Source: Bdellovibrionales bacterium Ga0074137
GTDB taxonomy: Bacteria > Bdellovibrionota > Bdellovibrionia > Bdellovibrionales > JAMPXM01
Reading direction: 5' to 3'
Assembly: GCA_001464715.1 (NCBI GenBank)
Contig: LNDT01000018.1
Location: 19,625-83,624 of the forward strand
Length of the DNA: 64,000 nucleotides
Below are positions 7,793 to 24,719 of the stretch, piece after piece; within the stretch, counting starts at the first letter, position 1, and the number at the start of each line of letters is the position of its first letter. The translations under genes were made by a program, and so were the position numbers. The notes below the pieces were generated by a model. That model saw only the letters and a list, made by a program, of their open reading frames with translations. It was not told the DNA's origin and made no database searches.

Positions 7793-8278
7793 ATGAAATA
7801 TATTTTCCTTTCCTTTCTCTTTTTCTGGATTTCCGTAAAAGCCGATGCGCTCACTCTTCGACCCGGCGATCAAATCACTATGACTCAAACCGGCACCGAA
7901 GCTTCAAACTGGGAAATAAAAAGTCGTCTCGTGGGAAAGGCCAACGGCGAACATTTCGATCTTATATTGGGCGATGTCGGGCCGGATGGTCAGAATGACT
8001 TGGCCTATGCCACGCAAGTGACGGACACGACTTTGATCTCGAGTTACCTAGCGGCGGGTCAAACCGTGACACTCAGTGAGCCAGTGACGACTGTTGTGCT
8101 TTCGAACACCGCGAAGAGTCTCCGTGCAAAACTCAAGACAGACGCGAAGGCGGCAGCCATCTATGCCGAAAAACTCGAAGCACAATACTATGGTTCGAAG
8201 AGTTTGTTGGGCGACTGCTACCGCAATAAACGTAAACTAGATGAAAAGAGCCCACCGGCGTCCGAGATTAGGCGATAG
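7793..8278 (+). CDS. secreted hypothetical protein
   Basis: GGAGG lies 9 nt upstream of the ATG. N-terminal signal-like MKYIFLSFLFFWISVKA. Confidence 0.6.
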   Translation: MKYIFLSFLFFWISVKADALTLRPGDQITMTQTGTEASNWEIKSRLVGKANGEHFDLILGDVGPDGQNDLAYATQVTDTTLISSYLAAGQTVTLSEPVTTVVLSNTAKSLRAKLKTDAKAAAIYAEKLEAQYYGSKSLLGDCYRNKRKLDEKSPPASEIRR

Positions 8279-8330
8279 TCACCACTCGCAATTACGGTTG
8301 CACGAACCTGTTAGGGCGGAACACAAAAAA

Positions 8331-8374
8331 TCAGTTCGAGTTCGAACTCAAATCTCAGTTCGAACCCGAACTAG
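8331..8374. repeat. GTTCGAAC-containing low-complexity array (2 palindromes)
   Basis: tCAGTTCGAGTTCGAACtcaaatctcaGTTCGAACccgaactag. GTTCGAAC occurs at 8340 and 8358. The same 16-mer is found at 21401, 23202 and 24413. Confidence 0.7.
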
Positions 8375-8427
8375 AAATTTACCCCGGAATCTGACAATAA
8401 GAAGAAACTGAACAATCAGTATTGAGG

Positions 8428-8561
8428 CCGCGGGATTTTACCTTTTTCCGCGACCTCCGAATCGGGAAGGTCGCGTATGCCGCGACCCGAGGCCAGGAAG
8501 GCCGAGCCGATGCGGCAGAGGGTACGACGCCCGTGTCGCGGAAAAAGGTAAAATCCCGCGG
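8428..8561 (-). repeat. structured inverted-repeat element, copy A (possible ncRNA or MITE-like element)
   Basis: The arm at 8428-8454 (CCGCGGGATTTTACCTTTTTCCGCGAC) is the exact reverse complement of 8535-8561. The 80-nt core, once reverse-complemented, aligns along its whole length with the core of copy B at 21125-21203. Confidence 0.8.
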
Positions 8562-8587
8562 ACACAAAATCGTCGTTCAATTTATGA

Positions 8588-9211
8588 CTATTTTGCGCTC
8601 TCGCGGACAAAGCGAGTGAGATAATACCGAACGAGGTAATCAGTCTTGATCGCCTGTTCGCGGTAGGTCCAATTGAGATCGCCGAAGGCGCCCCAGCGAG
8701 CGATCAAGAGATCTTCTTCACCGACATGGCTTGATACGGAAACTCCGCCGGGAGCTGCCGAAGCGCCGGCAGGTTGGAATCCCGCGCCGACGTAATGGAA
8801 GCGCACAGAAACTGCGCCGGGCTCTTTCAAAGAGAAAATTAGCTTAAAGCCGTTTCGGAACAGCATGAAGTCGGCGTGAGTGTTGGCGATGCCATAAATT
8901 TTCACTCGGCCAAGAGACGAACCTTTGAGTTGATTGAAGGCCGAAGCCGCATCGACAAAAGCCGTTTTGAGTTCGTTCATGAATGCGACCGATTCACCAA
9001 CAAGAATTTGAGCAGGATCGAAGGCCGGACCGAATTCGATGACTCCGGACTCTTCCATGCGCTGCTCGGCGCGAACCAGATCTTTGATCCAACCAAGACG
9101 GTCTGAGCGTAGGCCCTGCGAATTCGTGTTTGTTCCCGGTCGACTGCCTAAGATTTCCATTCCGTCCATGGAAGAACCCCCCTGAAAAATAGAGCTAATC
9201 GCTCCTCTCAT
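8588..9211 (-). CDS. hypothetical protein
   Basis: 207-aa ORF downstream of ssb on the same strand. No recognisable motif. The opposite-strand ORF is shorter and Arg-rich. Confidence 0.6.
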   Translation of the reverse strand: MRGAISSIFQGGSSMDGMEILGSRPGTNTNSQGLRSDRLGWIKDLVRAEQRMEESGVIEFGPAFDPAQILVGESVAFMNELKTAFVDAASAFNQLKGSSLGRVKIYGIANTHADFMLFRNGFKLIFSLKEPGAVSVRFHYVGAGFQPAGASAAPGGVSVSSHVGEEDLLIARWGAFGDLNWTYREQAIKTDYLVRYYLTRFVRESAK

Positions 9212-20474: not shown

Positions 20475-21074
20475 ATGAACACAGATCACACCAACAACCC
20501 ATCGCCACACACTGCCAATGTGACTCGCGAGCTCGATCCTGGGCTCTTCGGAGGGTCCACGTCGACACCGGCGCAGGGACACGGTTCGACGCCCACCCAT
20601 GGACTTCATCCCGGTATCGCTCCGCCAACGACGCAGCCAGGACGTGCGATTCCTTATCCACCGATTGATATGCGAGTGCTTGAAGCGCAGGTTCTGCAAA
20701 TCAAAGCTGTGCTTTCGCAGTTCGATCGTCGTCTTGATCAGATGGCGGCCCAAATCAACGAAACGAACCGCGACAATCAAGGTCGTCTCGACCGCTACGG
20801 GCAACAGCTTTTGCGACTCGAAGATGGAATTCAGCGACTGACGTCCGACACCAGCAATCGTCTCGCCTCGCTTGCAGGCCGTGTGAACGAACGAAAAGTC
20901 AGCGACAGTAAGCTTCAAGATTTGATCGATCGCCATAATCTTTTGGTCCGCAATTTCGAAAACCGGCTCTCGTCGTTGCAAAAACTTGCGGGCGATCAAG
21001 AGCAGGCACTTTTGAGCGCGTTCGCGGCTCTTGAAGATGCTCGCGCGGATTTGGCGCGCCTAAAAAGAATGTAA
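20475..21074 (+). CDS. hypothetical coiled-coil protein with Pro/Thr/His-rich N-terminus
   Basis: 199 aa. The C-terminal 140 aa are heptad-like (LEAQVLQIKAVLSQFDRRLDQM...). The antisense ORF 20418-20999 looks like Arg-rich noise. Confidence 0.55.
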   Translation: MNTDHTNNPSPHTANVTRELDPGLFGGSTSTPAQGHGSTPTHGLHPGIAPPTTQPGRAIPYPPIDMRVLEAQVLQIKAVLSQFDRRLDQMAAQINETNRDNQGRLDRYGQQLLRLEDGIQRLTSDTSNRLASLAGRVNERKVSDSKLQDLIDRHNLLVRNFENRLSSLQKLAGDQEQALLSAFAALEDARADLARLKRM

Positions 21075-21093
21075 AAAAGCTGTTCTTCGACGT

Positions 21094-21234
21094 GGGATCG
21101 CTTCGGCCTCTCTCTTTCCGCGACACGGGCCTCCGTGCCCTCGCTGCGACGGCTCGGCCTTCCTGGCCTCGGCCCGCGTTTACGCGGACTTCCCATCGCA
21201 GAGGTCGCGGAAAGAGAGAGGCCGAAGCGATCCC
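21094..21234 (+). repeat. structured inverted-repeat element, copy B (possible ncRNA or MITE-like element)
   Basis: The arm at 21094-21124 (GGGATCGCTTCGGCCTCTCTCTTTCCGCGAC) is the exact reverse complement of 21204-21234. The 79-nt core is homologous to copy A and shares an identical 23-nt block, CGGCTCGGCCTTCCTGGCCTCGG. Confidence 0.8.
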
Positions 21235-21285
21235 TGATTCGTGCTTTGTTTGCTTTTTTATTTTTTTGGGGATGGGAGTTGGGCT

Positions 21286-21420
21286 CGGGTTGTGGTTCGA
21301 ACTGCGGGTTCTGTTCGAGTTTAGATTCGGTTTGAGTTCGCACTCGAGTCTGAGTTCGAGTTCGAACTGCGGGTTCGGAGTTTGGTTCGAGCTTGTGTTT
21401 CAGTTCGAGTTCGAACTGCT
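21286..21420. repeat. GTTCGAAC / GTTCGAG low-complexity array (3 palindromes)
   Basis: GTTCGAAC occurs at 21295, 21360 and 21409. The internal duplication GGTTCGAACTGCGGGTTC appears twice. AGTTCGAGTTCGAAC occurs at 21353 and 21402. Confidence 0.7.
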
Positions 21421-21522
21421 GGAATTCGTGGCCGCTTGCATATTGAAGCGGCCTGCCTCGTTGATTGAACGACCTTAGTTTATTTTTTCGACTTCTTGGT
21501 ATTCTTCGGAAAAATATATATT

Positions 21523-22461
21523 TTAAATTGGAAGAAGGCGATAGCGCCACTGGTTTAGCTCTGAGGCGATGTTGGCTTTTGCGTTGGCTTCATACTTTTC
21601 CTGCATTTGCGAAATCCTAAAAATTCGGCCTCTCATTAATTTTTTTAGTAGGCGCTTCCTGCCAGCGTAAAAAACGACCGACGGAATCATTTTGTACTCC
21701 TCTCTCACGTCGTTCGCGTAGGTCTCATACAAGAAACGGCAGGCACCCAGGACTGAAAGATCAATATCGAGAAACAAATTAGTATCCACATCGCCCCTAA
21801 GATCATCTCTGGCATCGCCCCTCACATCACTTTCGTGCTTGGACGCCAGGATCATCAATTCCACTGCCGGAAGCGATATATCTGACTTAAAAGTGCCAAG
21901 ATCTTGGTGTAGTCTTCTGGCGCTGTTTTCTTCATTTTTCTTCGAAGCGGGGACGTAGACCAAATCGTGGTACCAGATCGCAAGTTCAATTTTTTCCTTG
22001 TCGACATAGCCGTCGGTTGAAGTGTCCAGCTCATACAAACATTGGTTGATGTGGGTGAGCGAATGGTAGGCCCTTGCGCCATCGTCGTAGGTTTCGATAA
22101 TTGACTTCGACAGTGACTCGGACTGCTTAGTCTCCATCGAAAAGTGCCGGCGAAAAAAACCATCAAGACGTGCGAGAAGCTCGGTCTTTCGAGAAGTCGT
22201 AACGATAAGTTCGGGGTGCTTCGTCCAAATGAGAAAGAAAGCATTGTCTGTGCTGAACTGCGAAAGCGTAAGACTTTCTAGATCGATACTTGGCAGCGAC
22301 TTCACCCAGTCCATGGAAACCTGGGAAGCCGGAAGTCTCCAGCTTCTTTTGACTCCGTAAATTCGATAGAACCTATCTTCAACAAAGGGCCCGCGGTTTG
22401 TGGTTTCCACAAACACAAAGTCGATCTCGCTGGCGGTCAGTTTCTCTATTTCATTGTTCAT
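21523..22461 (-). CDS. HD-superfamily phosphohydrolase-like protein (COG4339-like C-domain) with an unknown N-terminal domain
   Basis: ARAYHSLTHINQCL ... LAIWYHDLVYVP ... NEENSA matches the H...HD pattern of the small HD family. The first 120 aa or so are unassigned. Confidence 0.6.
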   Translation of the reverse strand: MNNEIEKLTASEIDFVFVETTNRGPFVEDRFYRIYGVKRSWRLPASQVSMDWVKSLPSIDLESLTLSQFSTDNAFFLIWTKHPELIVTTSRKTELLARLDGFFRRHFSMETKQSESLSKSIIETYDDGARAYHSLTHINQCLYELDTSTDGYVDKEKIELAIWYHDLVYVPASKKNEENSARRLHQDLGTFKSDISLPAVELMILASKHESDVRGDARDDLRGDVDTNLFLDIDLSVLGACRFLYETYANDVREEYKMIPSVVFYAGRKRLLKKLMRGRIFRISQMQEKYEANAKANIASELNQWRYRLLPI

Positions 22462-22567
22462 TCAGAGAGTCCTCCTTATCAAGTGCTCCGCAGACGTTCC
22501 TCATCAAGTTAGGTTCTTCAGGCACAAAGCTATTGTCGGCGCCATAGATTGGTCCTACAACCAATCT

Positions 22568-23119
22568 ATGGGGCGTAAAAGCGAAAGAGAAAATCGAAGG
22601 CGAGAGATTATCGCGGCCTTTGGTCGGGTTCTGGCCGATCACGGTTTTGCCGGCGCCACAATGACGGCCGTGGCAGAAAATGCCGGCTTGTCGCCGGGGC
22701 TACTCCACCATCACTTTAAAGACAAAAATGAAATGTTAGAGGAGCTGTTGACCAGTTTGATTGGTGGATTCAAAAAGCGATTCTCTGACTTTTGCAAAGA
22801 TCAGCCGGCCGAGCAGAAATTAGAATGTTACATCGATGCCGCTTTAAAACTTGATCAGCATTCCGATTCAATTTCAGCGAAGTGCTGGGTGGGGCTTCTG
22901 GCTGAAGCGCTACGTAATCCGGTGCTTTTTAATCGAGTGAAACGGCACTTAGAAAATGAAGTAAAGATAGTTTCCGAAATCTCTGGAAATAAATTAAGCG
23001 AGCAGAAGAGCAGCGCAGTTATCTCATTCATATTTGGTGCTCTCGTTTTTGGAGCCTTCGCACCCCGCAAAGCCGCAGGATTTGCGGCACCTGCTGCAAA
23101 ACGCCTAGCGAAGAGCTAA
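22568..23119 (+). CDS. TetR-family transcriptional regulator
   Basis: RRREIIAAFGRVLADHGFAGATMTAVAENAGLSPGLLHHHFKDKNEML is a typical TetR HTH. I chose the ATG at 22568 rather than the tracked 22400 start. Confidence 0.85.
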   Translation: MGRKSERENRRREIIAAFGRVLADHGFAGATMTAVAENAGLSPGLLHHHFKDKNEMLEELLTSLIGGFKKRFSDFCKDQPAEQKLECYIDAALKLDQHSDSISAKCWVGLLAEALRNPVLFNRVKRHLENEVKIVSEISGNKLSEQKSSAVISFIFGALVFGAFAPRKAAGFAAPAAKRLAKS

Positions 23120-23180: not shown

Positions 23181-23228
23181 TTCAAGTTCGAACCTGAAAT
23201 TCAGTTCGAGTTCGAACCTGAACTTGAA
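23181..23228. repeat. GTTCGAAC array (2 palindromes)
   Basis: ttcaaGTTCGAACctgaaattCAGTTCGAGTTCGAACctgaacttgaac. Located in the 470-nt gap after tetR. Confidence 0.65.
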
Positions 23229-23591: not shown

Positions 23592-24719
23592 ATGAATCTC
23601 AAAATCCTATCGGACGAAACTTTGACTGAAAAACTTCGCGATCTTTCAAAGCGTGATCTGGCGCTCACGGCAGAGATCGTCTCGCACATTCATGAGTTTA
23701 TGGTGCGACGATTGTACCTCGATCACGGGTGCACCAGTATTTTCGGATATCTCACAGATCACCTTGGCTATCCGCGTGCCACCGCCCAAAACCGAATCGA
23801 TGCGGCTCGGTTGTTGGACGCTGTTCCGGAAATTAAAGAAGAGCTCGCCAATGGAAAGATTAGTCTTGGGCAAATCACTTTGATCTCGATGGGTGTTCGG
23901 CAGGCCGAGAAAGAAAATCCTGGGATGAAAGTGTCCGTCGATCAAAAGCGACATTTGGTCGAGAAGATCGCAAATCGCGGGAACGCTGAGACGGGCAGTG
24001 GATGCCTTTATGGCGAGCATGCCGAAAGTGGTGAAAAAACTGCGAAAAGCGGTAACGGTGGGTCGGTTAGGTCCGAACATGCATCTGCTCAAATCATAGC
24101 GCAGGAACTCGATATCAAAATCATTCCCGTTGAAAGAGTTCGTGTGCATCAAGACGGTTCGGTCACTATCGAAGTCCACCTTTCCAAAGAAGAATTCGAA
24201 AACCTAAAACGGGTCCGCGATCTAAACACGCACAAAAACCACAACGCAAAACTCGGCGAAACTGTCGCTGAGGCGGCGAAGTTCTTTTTAGAAAAAAAGG
24301 ATCCACGAAAATTAAAAACCAAAATTGACCTGCAGCAGGCGAAAACCGATTCGATTTCAGAAACTGGTTCGGATTCGAACTTGGAGGTAGGCTCGGGACC
24401 GAACCAAAATTTCAGTTCGAGTTCGAACTCGAAAGATGATTTGCCAAAAACCAGTACGGTCGCCTTGAGGCCGAGCGCCCAACTTCCAAAACGCATCCAG
24501 CGTAACTATATTAGTGTGCACGTTGTTCGCGCCCTTCATCAGCGAGACAAATCATGTCGGTGGCGGGACTCAACGGGCCACTTTTGCGGATCGACGTACC
24601 AGCTGCAAATCGATCACATCAGAGGACTTGCCGATGGTGGCGCCGACGCGATCGAAAATCTTGAGCTAAAATGCTCAATACACAACCGACGGAAGTTCGA
24701 ACTCGAACAACGTCAGTGA
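23592..24719 (+). CDS. HNH endonuclease (DUF222-like N-domain + C-terminal HNH)
   Basis: C-terminal LQIDHIRGLADGGADAIENLELKCSIHNRRK is an H-N-H motif. The N-terminus (LLDAVPEIKEELANGKISLGQ) resembles the DUF222/13E12-type family. GGAGGAG RBS. Confidence 0.85.
   Translation: MNLKILSDETLTEKLRDLSKRDLALTAEIVSHIHEFMVRRLYLDHGCTSIFGYLTDHLGYPRATAQNRIDAARLLDAVPEIKEELANGKISLGQITLISMGVRQAEKENPGMKVSVDQKRHLVEKIANRGNAETGSGCLYGEHAESGEKTAKSGNGGSVRSEHASAQIIAQELDIKIIPVERVRVHQDGSVTIEVHLSKEEFENLKRVRDLNTHKNHNAKLGETVAEAAKFFLEKKDPRKLKTKIDLQQAKTDSISETGSDSNLEVGSGPNQNFSSSSNSKDDLPKTSTVALRPSAQLPKRIQRNYISVHVVRALHQRDKSCRWRDSTGHFCGSTYQLQIDHIRGLADGGADAIENLELKCSIHNRRKFELEQRQ
24366..24432. repeat. GTTCGA-type repeat embedded in frame in the HNH gene linker
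   Basis: ggttcggATTCGAACttggaggtaggctcgggaccgaaccaaaatttCAGTTCGAGTTCGAACtcg, translated as GSDSNLEVGSGPNQNFSSSSNS. Confidence 0.6.

What the first reader, a model, noticed from the sequence alone, without database searches (positions are those of the whole stretch)
8331..8561. Both element copies sit just after a stop codon in the same relative orientation, within a larger homologous module; the copies are inverted around 12.5 kb of housekeeping genes
Copy A begins 26 nt after the stop of the minus-strand gene 8588-9211. Copy B begins 19 nt after the stop of the plus-strand gene 20475-21074. In both cases the element is co-oriented with the upstream gene. Homology continues past the hairpin. 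After the stem comes CTGATT, then a T-rich tract (B: ctgattcgtgctttgtttgcttttttattttttt; A, read on the minus strand: ctgattgttcagtttcttcttattgtc). Next comes GGGG, then cgggtt..GTTCGAACTG and a variable number of GTTCGAAC units (2 in A, 3 in B). This layout fits a complex 3'-UTR, terminator or sRNA module. It equally fits a composite mobile unit that targets gene ends. Because the two modules of about 200-330 nt are in inverted orientation, they could also mediate inversion of the intervening segment (ssb to rluB).
Basis: partly seen in the sequence, partly recalled or inferred. Interest (0 to 1): 0.55.

Follow-up and report, generated by a model that had tools for sequence, protein, structure and literature searches.

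The report
Mobile hairpin repeat behind gene ends
The two copies belong to a small, lineage-restricted family of about 190-base hairpin-forming repeats that inserted just downstream of gene ends in an uncultured Bdellovibrio-like bacterium; this is a new example of a known kind of bacterial "junk-or-terminator" repeat, and it does not act as an inversion switch.

Summary
Two copies of a roughly 145-nt GC-rich hairpin lie at 8421-8567(-) and 21092-21237(+). They start 26 and 19 nt after the stops of co-oriented genes, and each is followed by a T-rich tail ending in GGGG.

A covariance model found five more copies on LNFM01 metagenome contigs. These contigs have the same tetranucleotide signature as the window. 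Orthologous copies at both sites occur in a relative with 90-97% aa identity.

Relatives at 81-88% aa identity keep the gene order but have empty sites. At site A they carry ordinary intrinsic terminators. At site B the sequence simply lacks hairpin and tail.

The GTTCGAAC arrays are present in the empty site and elsewhere in the window. They are native flank and not part of the element.

The fold is a 27-31 bp outer helix closing two three-way junctions. It is strongly supported: 96% of cells paired and 20 of 54 pairs with double changes. The changes are almost purely Watson-Crick, and there is no RNA-strand bias.

There is no hit in Rfam, among tRNAs, or in the plasmid or phage collections.

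Best reading: a non-autonomous, MITE/SPRITE/ERIC-like palindromic repeat that sits in 3' UTRs. There it probably acts as a terminator-like or decay-barrier hairpin.

Inversion is not supported.

Verdict: a new member of a known kind, of moderate interest.

The parts
8421..8567 (-). Element copy A. The hairpin has a continuous outer stem at 8561-8428. It closes two three-way junctions (helices P2-P5).
   Evidence: Covariance model R1 gives 157.6 bits. Fold energy is -89 kcal/mol, z = -9.1. Covariation is shown.
8382..8420 (-). Tail of copy A: ACTGATT, a T-rich tract, then GGGG. About 43% T when counted from the stem end at 8427. It is probably part of the inserted unit.
   Evidence: Sequence read. 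Similar to tail B beyond shuffles. The corresponding tail at site B belongs to the insertion.
8322..8377 (-). Native flank, not part of the element. Two GTTCGAAC-containing arms form a 17-bp hairpin (8373-8332) followed by TTTTTT. This looks like the intrinsic terminator for the gene A transcript.
   Evidence: Terminator scan and motif positions.
8588..9211 (-). Upstream co-oriented gene A, a conserved Bdellovibrionota hypothetical protein. Its stop is 26 nt before the stem.
21092..21237 (+). Element copy B. The hairpin has a perfect 31-bp outer stem (21094-21124 paired with 21204-21234) and the same branched core.
   Evidence: R1 gives 144 bits. Inverted repeat I2 is 100% complementary. Fold energy is -103 kcal/mol, z = -9.5.
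21235..21271 (+). Tail of copy B: TGATTCG, a T-rich tract (62% T), then GGGG. It is part of the inserted unit.
   Evidence: Aligning empty site L115 against filled L111 and the window places the tail inside the insertion.
21290..21420 (+). Native flank, not part of the element. This is a degenerate (GTTCGA)n hexamer array. It is present at the empty site of L115 and is expanded in the window.
   Evidence: TRF finds period 6, 17 copies. Alignments.
20475..21074 (+). Upstream co-oriented gene B, a conserved hypothetical protein. Its stop is 19 nt before the stem.

Best explanation
The two copies are members of a lineage-restricted family of non-autonomous, palindromic interspersed repeats of the MITE / SPRITE / ERIC kind.

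Anatomy: the unit is about 185-190 nt. It consists of a GC-rich (62-72%) hairpin of about 145 nt, in which a 27-31 bp Watson-Crick helix closes two stacked three-way junctions, followed by a T-rich tail of about 40 nt.

History: it inserted once at each of the two sites in the ancestor of the window's species-level clade. The landing point lies between the stop codon and the native downstream sequence. The copies have since diverged.

Inferred function: because it lies 17-35 nt after a stop codon, with no promoter in between and ahead of the native terminator, it is co-transcribed as part of the 3' UTR. There the long hairpin plus U-rich tail probably acts as a terminator-like structure or an exonuclease barrier, or, with about 30 bp of dsRNA, as an RNase III site.

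The near-exclusive Watson-Crick pairing lets the structure fold equally well on transcripts from either of the two convergent genes.

Shown here: family membership, fold and covariation, filled versus empty sites, and placement. Inferred only: transcription, the effect on RNA 3' ends, and the mobilising enzyme.
For: Family: 7 independent copies plus orthologous copies were found with model R1.

Structure: 96% of cells are paired, against 39-51% when partners are slid. 20 of 54 pairs have changes on both sides, and 0 of 500 shuffles reach this.

Orthologous pair winB vs L111: the four changed positions of each arm of the outer stem fall in the same four pairs. Three of these restore a Watson-Crick pair.

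Insertion polymorphism:
- Site A relatives carry ordinary intrinsic terminators instead.
- Site B relative L115 aligns on both flanks and lacks exactly the hairpin plus tail.
- Twelve other relative loci contain no copy.

Placement:
- In 6 of 7 independent sites the element is co-oriented with a gene whose stop lies 17-35 nt upstream. Most of these sites are between convergent genes.
- The upstream genes are functionally unrelated.
- No promoter-like site was found near either copy.
- At L032:6507-6651 the element fills the gap between convergent lgt and ppk2, 17 and 19 nt from their stops.

Orientation: copies A and B have opposite orientations within one replichore, where GC skew is uniformly positive. 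Orientation therefore follows the gene and not replication.

Published analogue: SPRITE in pneumococcus is an 18-bp duplex plus a U-rich tract. It is enriched between convergent genes and close to CDS 3' ends, has no known TSD or parent IS, and is lineage-restricted (PMC3049150).
Against: - No target-site duplication could be defined. Only a TCGA-containing 5' flank recurs, in 5-6 of 7 sites against a background of 0.15.
- No transposase or parent IS with matching ends was found. The window holds no Y1 transposase.
- Copies are only 64-88% identical, so there is no sign of recent activity.
- No U-tract abuts the stem, so the element is not a canonical intrinsic terminator.
- There is no strand signal for RNA. 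Variable G-T pairs number 2, against 7 C-A/A-C pairs. Forward-minus-reverse fold energies scatter from -5.4 to +8.2 kcal/mol.
- One copy (L092) lies antisense between tandem genes.
- The strongly conserved branched core is more elaborate than a terminator or a MITE needs.
- No expression data exist.
Confidence: 0.55

Rival explanations
1. A purely DNA-level selfish element of the REPIN or IS200/IS605-derived kind. On this view the hairpin forms in single-stranded DNA and is the substrate of a Y1 (RAYT-like) transposase acting in trans. Arm-to-arm template switching in the palindrome, not host selection, keeps the stems perfectly complementary. The element has no RNA function.
For: - Covariation is almost exclusively Watson-Crick to Watson-Crick: 45 cells changed on both sides against 3 changed on one side.
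- It includes C-G to G-C swaps that cannot pass through a wobble intermediate.
- Fold energies show no RNA-strand bias.
- Y1_Tnp-like genes exist in close relatives (L115:3478-3915, L016/L017).
- REPINs likewise show long hairpins with compensatory changes (PMC3116915).
Against: - The ends are the least conserved part: mean identity is 65% in the outer stem and 79% in the core. In REPINs the ends are the most conserved 16-mers.
- The core is not two inverted REPs.
- No Y1 gene occurs in the 64-kb window. The relatives that carry one lack the element at the sites examined, and no hairpins flank those genes.
- Orientation tracks the adjacent gene and not the replication strand.
- Both orthologous copies were retained with an intact structure after about 15% sequence divergence (reading).
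Confidence: 0.25
2. A new structured RNA class carried at gene 3' ends, for example a 3'UTR-derived sRNA, a protein-binding scaffold or a self-cleaving ribozyme. The conserved two-junction core would be the functional part and the long helix a stabilising clamp.
For: - The core sequence, junction nucleotides and all five helices are conserved across copies that differ by up to 36%, while the loops vary.
- In 6 of 7 sites the element is sense to the upstream gene, at a narrow distance from its stop.
- There is no match to any of the 4227 Rfam families, so if it is an RNA it is undescribed.
Against: - There are no G-U pairs beyond one invariant, doubtful pair.
- C-A mismatches, which would be G-U on the opposite strand, are more frequent.
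- Conservation lies mainly in helices rather than in loops or junctions.
- The element is absent from relatives at 81-88% aa identity, which manage with plain terminators.
- Host genes are unrelated.
- The L092 copy is antisense.
Confidence: 0.15
3. The inverted pair is a recombination substrate that flips the 12.5-kb ssb-rluB segment.
For: The only support is the inverted arrangement of the two copies.
Against: - The copies are 66% identical overall, and the longest shared run is 23 nt.
- The inner and outer neighbours of both junctions are arranged the same way in genomes with and without the element.
- Other copies occur singly or in direct orientation (L032).
- No recombinase gene is adjacent.
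Confidence: 0.03

Closest known systems
[quoted passage not shown] 2011, PMC3049150)
   Same: - A small interspersed repeat made of an unusually long duplex followed by a long U-rich tract.
- Strongly enriched between convergent genes and close to CDS 3' ends.
- No clear TSD and no parent IS.
- Restricted to a narrow lineage, with old and slowly moving copies.
- Proposed to have been co-opted as a terminator.
   Different: - SPRITE is AT-rich and about 105 bp, a simple 18-bp stem in a Firmicute.
- This element is GC-rich (62-72% in a 51% GC genome).
- It has a 27-31 bp stem enclosing a conserved core of about 85 nt with two three-way junctions.
- There is no sequence relationship.
ERIC / IRU and related enterobacterial MITE-like repeats (YPAL/RU-2, RU-3); Delihas 2011, PMC3184786
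   Same: - Imperfect or perfect palindromes of 100-170 bp in transcribed intergenic regions.
- They fold into long RNA hairpins.
- They show presence/absence polymorphism between relatives.
   Different: - ERIC has TA-flanked TIRs and TSDs; none are seen here.
- The ERIC core sequence is absent from the window (the consensus was taken from memory).
- The host phylum is different.
REPINs (REP doublets forming hairpins) with RAYT transposases; Bertels & Rainey 2011, PMC3116915
   Same: - A long hairpin with frequent compensatory changes.
- Extragenic location and non-autonomous status.
- An alternative 'clover' fold with internal small hairpins.
   Different: - In REPINs the ends are the most conserved part and the spacer varies; here it is the reverse.
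- There is no REP doublet symmetry in the core.
- No linked RAYT gene was found.
Intrinsic (Rho-independent) terminators
   Same: - The same genomic niche. In relatives lacking the element, site A holds ordinary terminator hairpins.
- A GC-rich stem followed by T-rich sequence.
   Different: - The stem is three times longer and branched.
- The U-tract starts 12-20 nt after the stem rather than abutting it.
- At site A a separate terminator-like hairpin follows the element.

Membership tests
MITE (as defined in PMC3184786) | Terminal inverted repeats straddling a core, small size, no transposase ORF, folds into a long hairpin | tested here: met
   The termini are 27-33 nt long and 94-100% complementary (I2 and I3). 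The unit is about 145-190 nt. There is no conserved ORF: the ORF the public annotation calls across copy B is not called at the orthologous site in L111.
MITE (as defined in PMC3184786) | Flanking target-site duplication (direct repeat) | tested here: inconclusive
   The empty versus filled alignment and the flanks of 8 copies show no consistent direct repeat. Only a TCGA-containing 5' flank recurs, in 5-6 of 7 sites against a background of 0.15.
MITE (as defined in PMC3184786) | Multiple dispersed copies with presence/absence polymorphism between related genomes | tested here: met
   There are 2 copies in the window and 5 on LNFM01 contigs with the same tetranucleotide signature. Filled and empty orthologous sites are shown.
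MITE (as defined in PMC3184786) | A cognate autonomous IS with matching terminal repeats | not testable with these tools
   There is no transposase in the window next to the copies. The plasmid and phage collections give no match.
REPIN / REP-RAYT | Two inverted REP units whose ends are the most conserved part, separated by a less conserved spacer | tested here: not met
   Mean identity is 65% in the outer stem and 79% in the core. The two halves of the core are not inverted copies of each other (reading).
REPIN / REP-RAYT | A RAYT (Y1 transposase) gene in the genome, typically flanked by the repeats | tested here: inconclusive
   tblastn with the Y1_Tnp-like protein of L115 finds nothing in the 64-kb window. 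Homologues occur in relatives (L016/L017) that lack the element at the sites examined, and no hairpins flank them. The whole genome is not available.
IS200/IS605-type single-strand transposition | Insertion orientation tied to the replication (lagging) strand | tested here: not met
   Copies A and B have opposite orientations within one stretch of uniformly positive GC skew. Orientation follows the adjacent gene.
SPRITE-like terminator-like repeats | Long duplex followed by a long U-rich tract | tested here: met
   The stems are 27-31 bp. The tails are 43% T (copy A, 44 nt) and 62% T (copy B, 37 nt). T-runs follow 8-25 nt after the stem in L092 and L032 copy 1, but not in every copy.
SPRITE-like terminator-like repeats | Enrichment between convergent genes and close to CDS 3' ends | tested here: met
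   In 6 of 7 independent sites the element starts 17-35 nt after a co-oriented stop. At least 5 sites lie between convergent genes. The sample is small and no genome-wide census was possible.
Intrinsic terminator | U-tract beginning 0-2 nt after a GC-rich stem | tested here: not met
   The stem of A is followed by CCUCAAUACUGAUUG. The stem of B is followed by UGAUUCGUGC before the U-runs. The scans list other hairpins, not the element. Note that the scan tool only allows loops of 3-8 nt.
Any Rfam 15 RNA family (ribozymes, sRNAs, riboswitches, tRNA-like) | Covariance-model match | tested here: not met
   No match at gathering thresholds in 64 kb. Only noise appears at E up to 10 on 8200-8650. 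ARAGORN finds no tRNA or tmRNA.
ERIC | Conserved ERIC core sequence | tested here: not met
   The 22-nt ERIC core, recalled from the ERIC1R primer, has no match at up to 3 mismatches.

The most novel reading that the evidence does not exclude
The element is a portable, strand-symmetric 3'-end module, which would be a previously undescribed structured nucleic-acid class. It consists of two stacked three-way junctions clamped by a 30-bp helix. It installs itself about 20 nt behind stop codons in sense orientation and functionally replaces ordinary terminators for both convergent genes. Its fast-evolving perfect helix might yield RNase III-processed small RNAs, or its core might recruit a dedicated protein.
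Probability: 0.12. Interest if true: 0.7.

Novelty: new member of a known kind. Interest (0 to 1): 0.4.

Why it matters
Small palindromic interspersed repeats have been described mainly in enterobacteria, Neisseria, pseudomonads and streptococci. None is documented for Bdellovibrionota in the library searched.

This family gives a clean case with filled and empty orthologous sites. It also has a fold better supported by covariation than most such repeats, and it displaces ordinary terminators.

It has practical effects as well:
- It breaks short-read assemblies: contigs L015 and L112 end inside it.
- It induces a spurious gene call in the public annotation.
- It could be mistaken for an inversion switch or for a non-coding RNA gene.

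If the core turns out to have a biochemical activity, the interest would rise.

Tried and rejected
- **Rfam.** Scans at gathering thresholds and at E up to 10 gave nothing beyond hairpin noise on the GTTCGAAC arms.
- **tRNA/tmRNA.** The ARAGORN scan found none.
- **Genome contigs pattern scan.** It gave one hit in Micromonospora with no stem around it, judged to be chance. The element is therefore absent, at this stringency, from the 185,579 species representatives.
- **Metagenome-contig scan.** It returned 87 loci. Only 4 were real, all LNFM01; the rest were high-GC coding sequence.
- **Viral contigs.** An 18-mer gave 13 loci that the covariance model rejects. A three-part pattern gave none.
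- **Plasmid and phage BLAST.** No match.
- **Guide/target idea for the variable stem.** The variable arm sequences match nothing else in the window.
- **Cargo-gene idea.**
  - orf161 next to copy A has no homologue in any relative's locus.
  - The other copies abut housekeeping genes.
  - No consistent cargo emerges.
- **Y1 transposase link.** Such a gene was found only in relatives without the element.
- **Strand assignment.** Neither G-U counting nor fold-energy asymmetry gave a signal.
- **Integron attC, retron and group II intron.** I considered these from general knowledge and dropped them. There is no integrase or RT, the flanking genes are convergent rather than arrayed, and the ends do not match the R''/R' core sites.

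Full report
**1. What is in the sequence**

Read on the minus strand, copy A follows the TAG stop of gene 8588-9211. After 26 nt a continuous stem begins at 8561 and closes at 8428, with weak outer pairs extending to 8567 and 8422.

Copy B follows the TAA stop of gene 20475-21074. After 19 nt comes a perfect 31-bp stem, 21094-21124 paired with 21204-21234.

Each stem encloses about 80 nt that are well conserved between the copies: CCGCGACACGGGC ... CGGCTCGGCCTTCCTGGCCTCGG ... GAGGTCGCGG. The distal 20-24 bp of the two stems are only 43% identical, yet both remain fully complementary.

Both regions fold far better than shuffled sequence (z = -9.1 and -9.5). Each hairpin is followed by (C)TGATT, a T-rich tract and GGGG. 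The two tails resemble each other more than composition-matched shuffles do (37 of 2000 shuffles reach the observed score).

**2. The organism and the family**

- Gene A and gene B are conserved hypothetical proteins of Bdellovibrionota (names given by sources).
- The window comes from a 175-kb contig of a drinking-water activated-carbon metagenome.
- No Rfam family matches, and ARAGORN finds nothing.
- A pattern scan of 185,579 species-representative genomes gave only a chance hit.
- A metagenome scan gave four true copies, all on long LNFM01 contigs.
- A covariance model built from six copies then found a fifth LNFM01 copy (L032:6507-6651). It found no further copy in the window, even with filters off.
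- The LNFM01 loci correlate with the window in tetranucleotide usage (r = 0.96-0.97) as well as pieces of the window correlate with the rest of it (0.96-0.975). Relatives at 81-90% aa identity correlate less well (0.92-0.945 for L111, L116, L124 and L126; 0.83-0.86 for the site-A loci). The LNFM01 contigs therefore probably come from the same genome or population.
- Copies are 64-88% identical. The family is old and not recently active.

**3. The fold**

The consensus has five parts:
- P1, a long outer helix whose inner 8 bp (CCGCGAC/GTCGCGG plus one pair) are nearly invariant.
- P2, a small hairpin.
- P3, an internal helix that closes a second three-way junction.
- P4 and P5, two hairpins carried on that junction.

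On eight full copies, 96.1% of cells form standard pairs, against 39-51% when the partners are slid by 1-3 columns. Twenty of 54 pairs show changes on both sides, and no shuffle in 500 reaches any of the five measures.

Loops vary; helices and the short junctions are conserved.

The orthologous pair, window copy B and L111, is the most telling. The four changed positions in each arm of P1 fall in the same four pairs, and three of these restore a Watson-Crick pair. P3 also changes with compensation. Overall divergence between the two copies is about 12-17% in stem, core, tail and spacer alike (my count). The sequence drifts at roughly the local non-coding rate while the pairing is kept.

The covariation is almost purely Watson-Crick to Watson-Crick, with 45 cells changed on both sides against 3 on one side. 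Apart from one invariant and doubtful G-T, there are 2 G-T pairs against 7 C-A/A-C pairs. Forward-minus-reverse RNA fold energies range from -5.4 to +8.2 kcal/mol with no trend.

The data therefore do not say which RNA strand folds, or whether the relevant fold is in RNA at all. Three readings remain open:
- single-stranded DNA;
- arm-to-arm correction within a palindrome;
- a structure that must fold on both convergent transcripts.

**4. Insertion polymorphism**

*Site A.* A relative with 97% aa-identical gene A has the element at the same place, and its contig breaks inside it (L015). Relatives at 85-88% aa identity keep the order large protein - SSB (not called in L018-L020) - gene A - (small gene) - DUF2802. 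Downstream of gene A they have short, ordinary intrinsic terminators and no element (L016-L020, L108-L110).

*Site B.* The relative at 90% aa identity has the element 17 nt after the stop (L111/L114). Relatives at 88, 86, 84 and 81% lack it (L115, L124/125, L116-121, L126-128).

L115 aligns with L111 and with the window on both flanks. It lacks about 190 nt: the hairpin plus the tail TGATCCG...TTTTTTATTTCTGGGGGGG(ATTCGGTT).

The GTTCGA-type array that follows is present in L115 (GAGTTCACACTCGAGCTTGGATTCGAGTCTGTATTCAAGTTCG). It is therefore native sequence. In the window it has simply expanded into a degenerate period-6 array of 17 units.

Similar arrays occur at 23186-23223 and, in two different reading frames, inside the HNH gene. 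TCGA and TTCGAA are over-represented across the window.

At site A the two GTTCGAAC arms form a 17-bp hairpin followed by T6. This is a terminator-like site downstream of the element.

**5. Placement**

| Site | Distance from co-oriented stop to stem (nt) |
|---|---|
| Window copy A | 26 to the continuous stem, 20 to the outer pairs |
| Window copy B | 19 |
| L032 copy 1 | 35 |
| L032 copy 2 | 17 |
| L046 | 19-20 |
| L061 | 20 |

- In these six of seven independent sites the model's forward strand is that of the upstream gene. The next gene is usually convergent.
- The upstream genes are unrelated: two hypotheticals, another hypothetical, lgt, a Ppx/GppA-family gene and an RlmL-like methyltransferase gene.
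- L092 is the exception. It lies antisense between two tandem genes. Its outer stem is degenerate, but an A6/T8 inverted pair flanks it.
- L032 copy 2 fills the 181-nt gap between convergent lgt and ppk2, 17 and 19 nt from the two stops.
- A TCGA lies within 18 nt 5' of the stem in 5-6 of 7 sites (background 0.15). This suggests a preference for the TCGA-rich arrays or a target motif, but no target-site duplication could be defined.
- GC skew is uniformly positive across the window. The opposite orientations of A and B therefore follow their genes and not the replication strand.
- No promoter-like site lies near either copy.

**6. Interpretation**

The combination points to the class of small non-autonomous palindromic repeats:
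- short length and no ORF;
- long complementary termini;
- several diverged copies behind unrelated genes;
- clean filled and empty orthologous sites;
- restriction to one narrow lineage.

Within that class the nearest published analogue in behaviour is SPRITE of pneumococcus. SPRITE is a long duplex plus a long U-rich tract. It is enriched between convergent genes and hugs CDS 3' ends, with no TSD or parent IS known, and it was proposed to be co-opted as a terminator (PMC3049150). MITE criteria are taken from PMC3184786 and REPIN features from PMC3116915.

Membership in REPINs fails on the conservation pattern and on the lack of REP doublet symmetry. Canonical-terminator status fails on the missing abutting U-tract. 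IS200/IS605-style strand specificity fails on orientation.

How it works is inferred, not shown. Because it sits between the stop codon and the native downstream signals, it should be transcribed with the upstream gene. A hairpin of -90 to -107 kcal/mol with a U-rich tail would be expected to do one or more of the following (general knowledge of REP, ERIC and Correia elements):
- pause or terminate RNA polymerase;
- block 3'-5' exonucleases;
- be cut by RNase III.

The minimum distance of 17 nt from the stop fits the need to leave room for a terminating ribosome (inference). Strict Watson-Crick pairing would let the same DNA serve both convergent transcripts (inference).

**7. Inversion**

The copies share at most 23 identical bases in a row and 66% identity overall. 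Gene A stays next to the DUF2802 side, and gene B next to the 418-aa and rluB genes, in every relative, with or without the element. The HD-protein gene lies beyond site B in both element-bearing genomes. Nothing supports flipping.

**8. Limits**

- Only eight full copies were available, and four of the five LNFM01 copies were found by a pattern that biases towards the conserved core.
- The genome-wide copy number is unknown.
- No transcript data exist.
- The mobilising enzyme is unknown.
- That the LNFM01 contigs belong to the same genome rests on composition only.

**Verdict:** a real, well-structured, insertion-polymorphic palindromic repeat family. It is a new member of a known kind, of moderate interest, with a modest chance that the conserved branched core hides something more.

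Noticed in passing
window 8324-8377, 21290-21420, 23186-23223, 24397-24434, 24695-24708: Degenerate (GTTCGA)n / GTTCGAGTTCGAAC arrays: 8 hits at up to 1 mismatch against 0.12 expected. They occur in intergenic DNA and, in two different reading frames, inside a coding gene. Across the window TCGA is 2.7x and TTCGAA 5.7x over-represented, while CTAG and TATA are about 6x under-represented. The array near copy A forms a terminator-like hairpin.
   Followed up: partly
window 23592-24719 (+): A gene with HNH endonuclease and weak DUF222 matches. It carries the GTTCGAGTTCGAAC motif twice, once in a Ser-rich linker and once at the C-terminus. It may be a mobile HNH gene and lies next to a TetR-family gene (22400-23119).
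   Followed up: no
window 21268-21289 (+): A G-quadruplex-type run, GGGG AT GGG AGTT GGG CTC GGG, lies directly after the T-rich tail of copy B. It is not conserved: L111 has only G7, and copy A has only GGGG.
   Followed up: no
L115:3478-3915 (-); L016/L017:5485-5937 (-): Y1_Tnp-like (IS200/RAYT-type) genes of about 145 aa (33% identical to each other) sit in the variable neighbourhoods of sites B and A in relatives that lack the element. No flanking hairpins were found, and there is no homologue in the window.
   Followed up: partly
window 7793-8278 (+); L108:3577-3966 (-): The slot between gene A and the conserved 87-aa gene holds a different small gene with a hydrophobic, signal-peptide-like N-terminus in different relatives: orf161 in the window, an unrelated 129-aa gene in L108, and nothing in L016-L020, L109 and L110. 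The outer flank of site B is similarly variable: two extra genes in L111 and unrelated genes in L115, L116 and L124.
   Followed up: partly
window 20996-21550 (-): The public annotation (JGI and ENA records) calls a 184-aa gene that runs across the GTTCGA array, the tail and hairpin B, and overlaps both neighbouring genes. No gene is called at the orthologous site in L111, so it is probably spurious.
   Followed up: partly
L015:3595-3680; L112:3112-3220; L113 end: Several short-read (Logan) contigs of the close relative end inside or just before the element. The long GC-rich palindrome evidently breaks assemblies, so its frequency in metagenome assemblies is probably underestimated.
   Followed up: no
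L092:8345-8530: The one antisense copy has a degenerate outer stem but is bracketed by a further inverted pair, AAAAAATTGAAA / TTTCAATTTTTT. This gives an A-tract - hairpin - T-tract layout like that of a bidirectional terminator.
   Followed up: no
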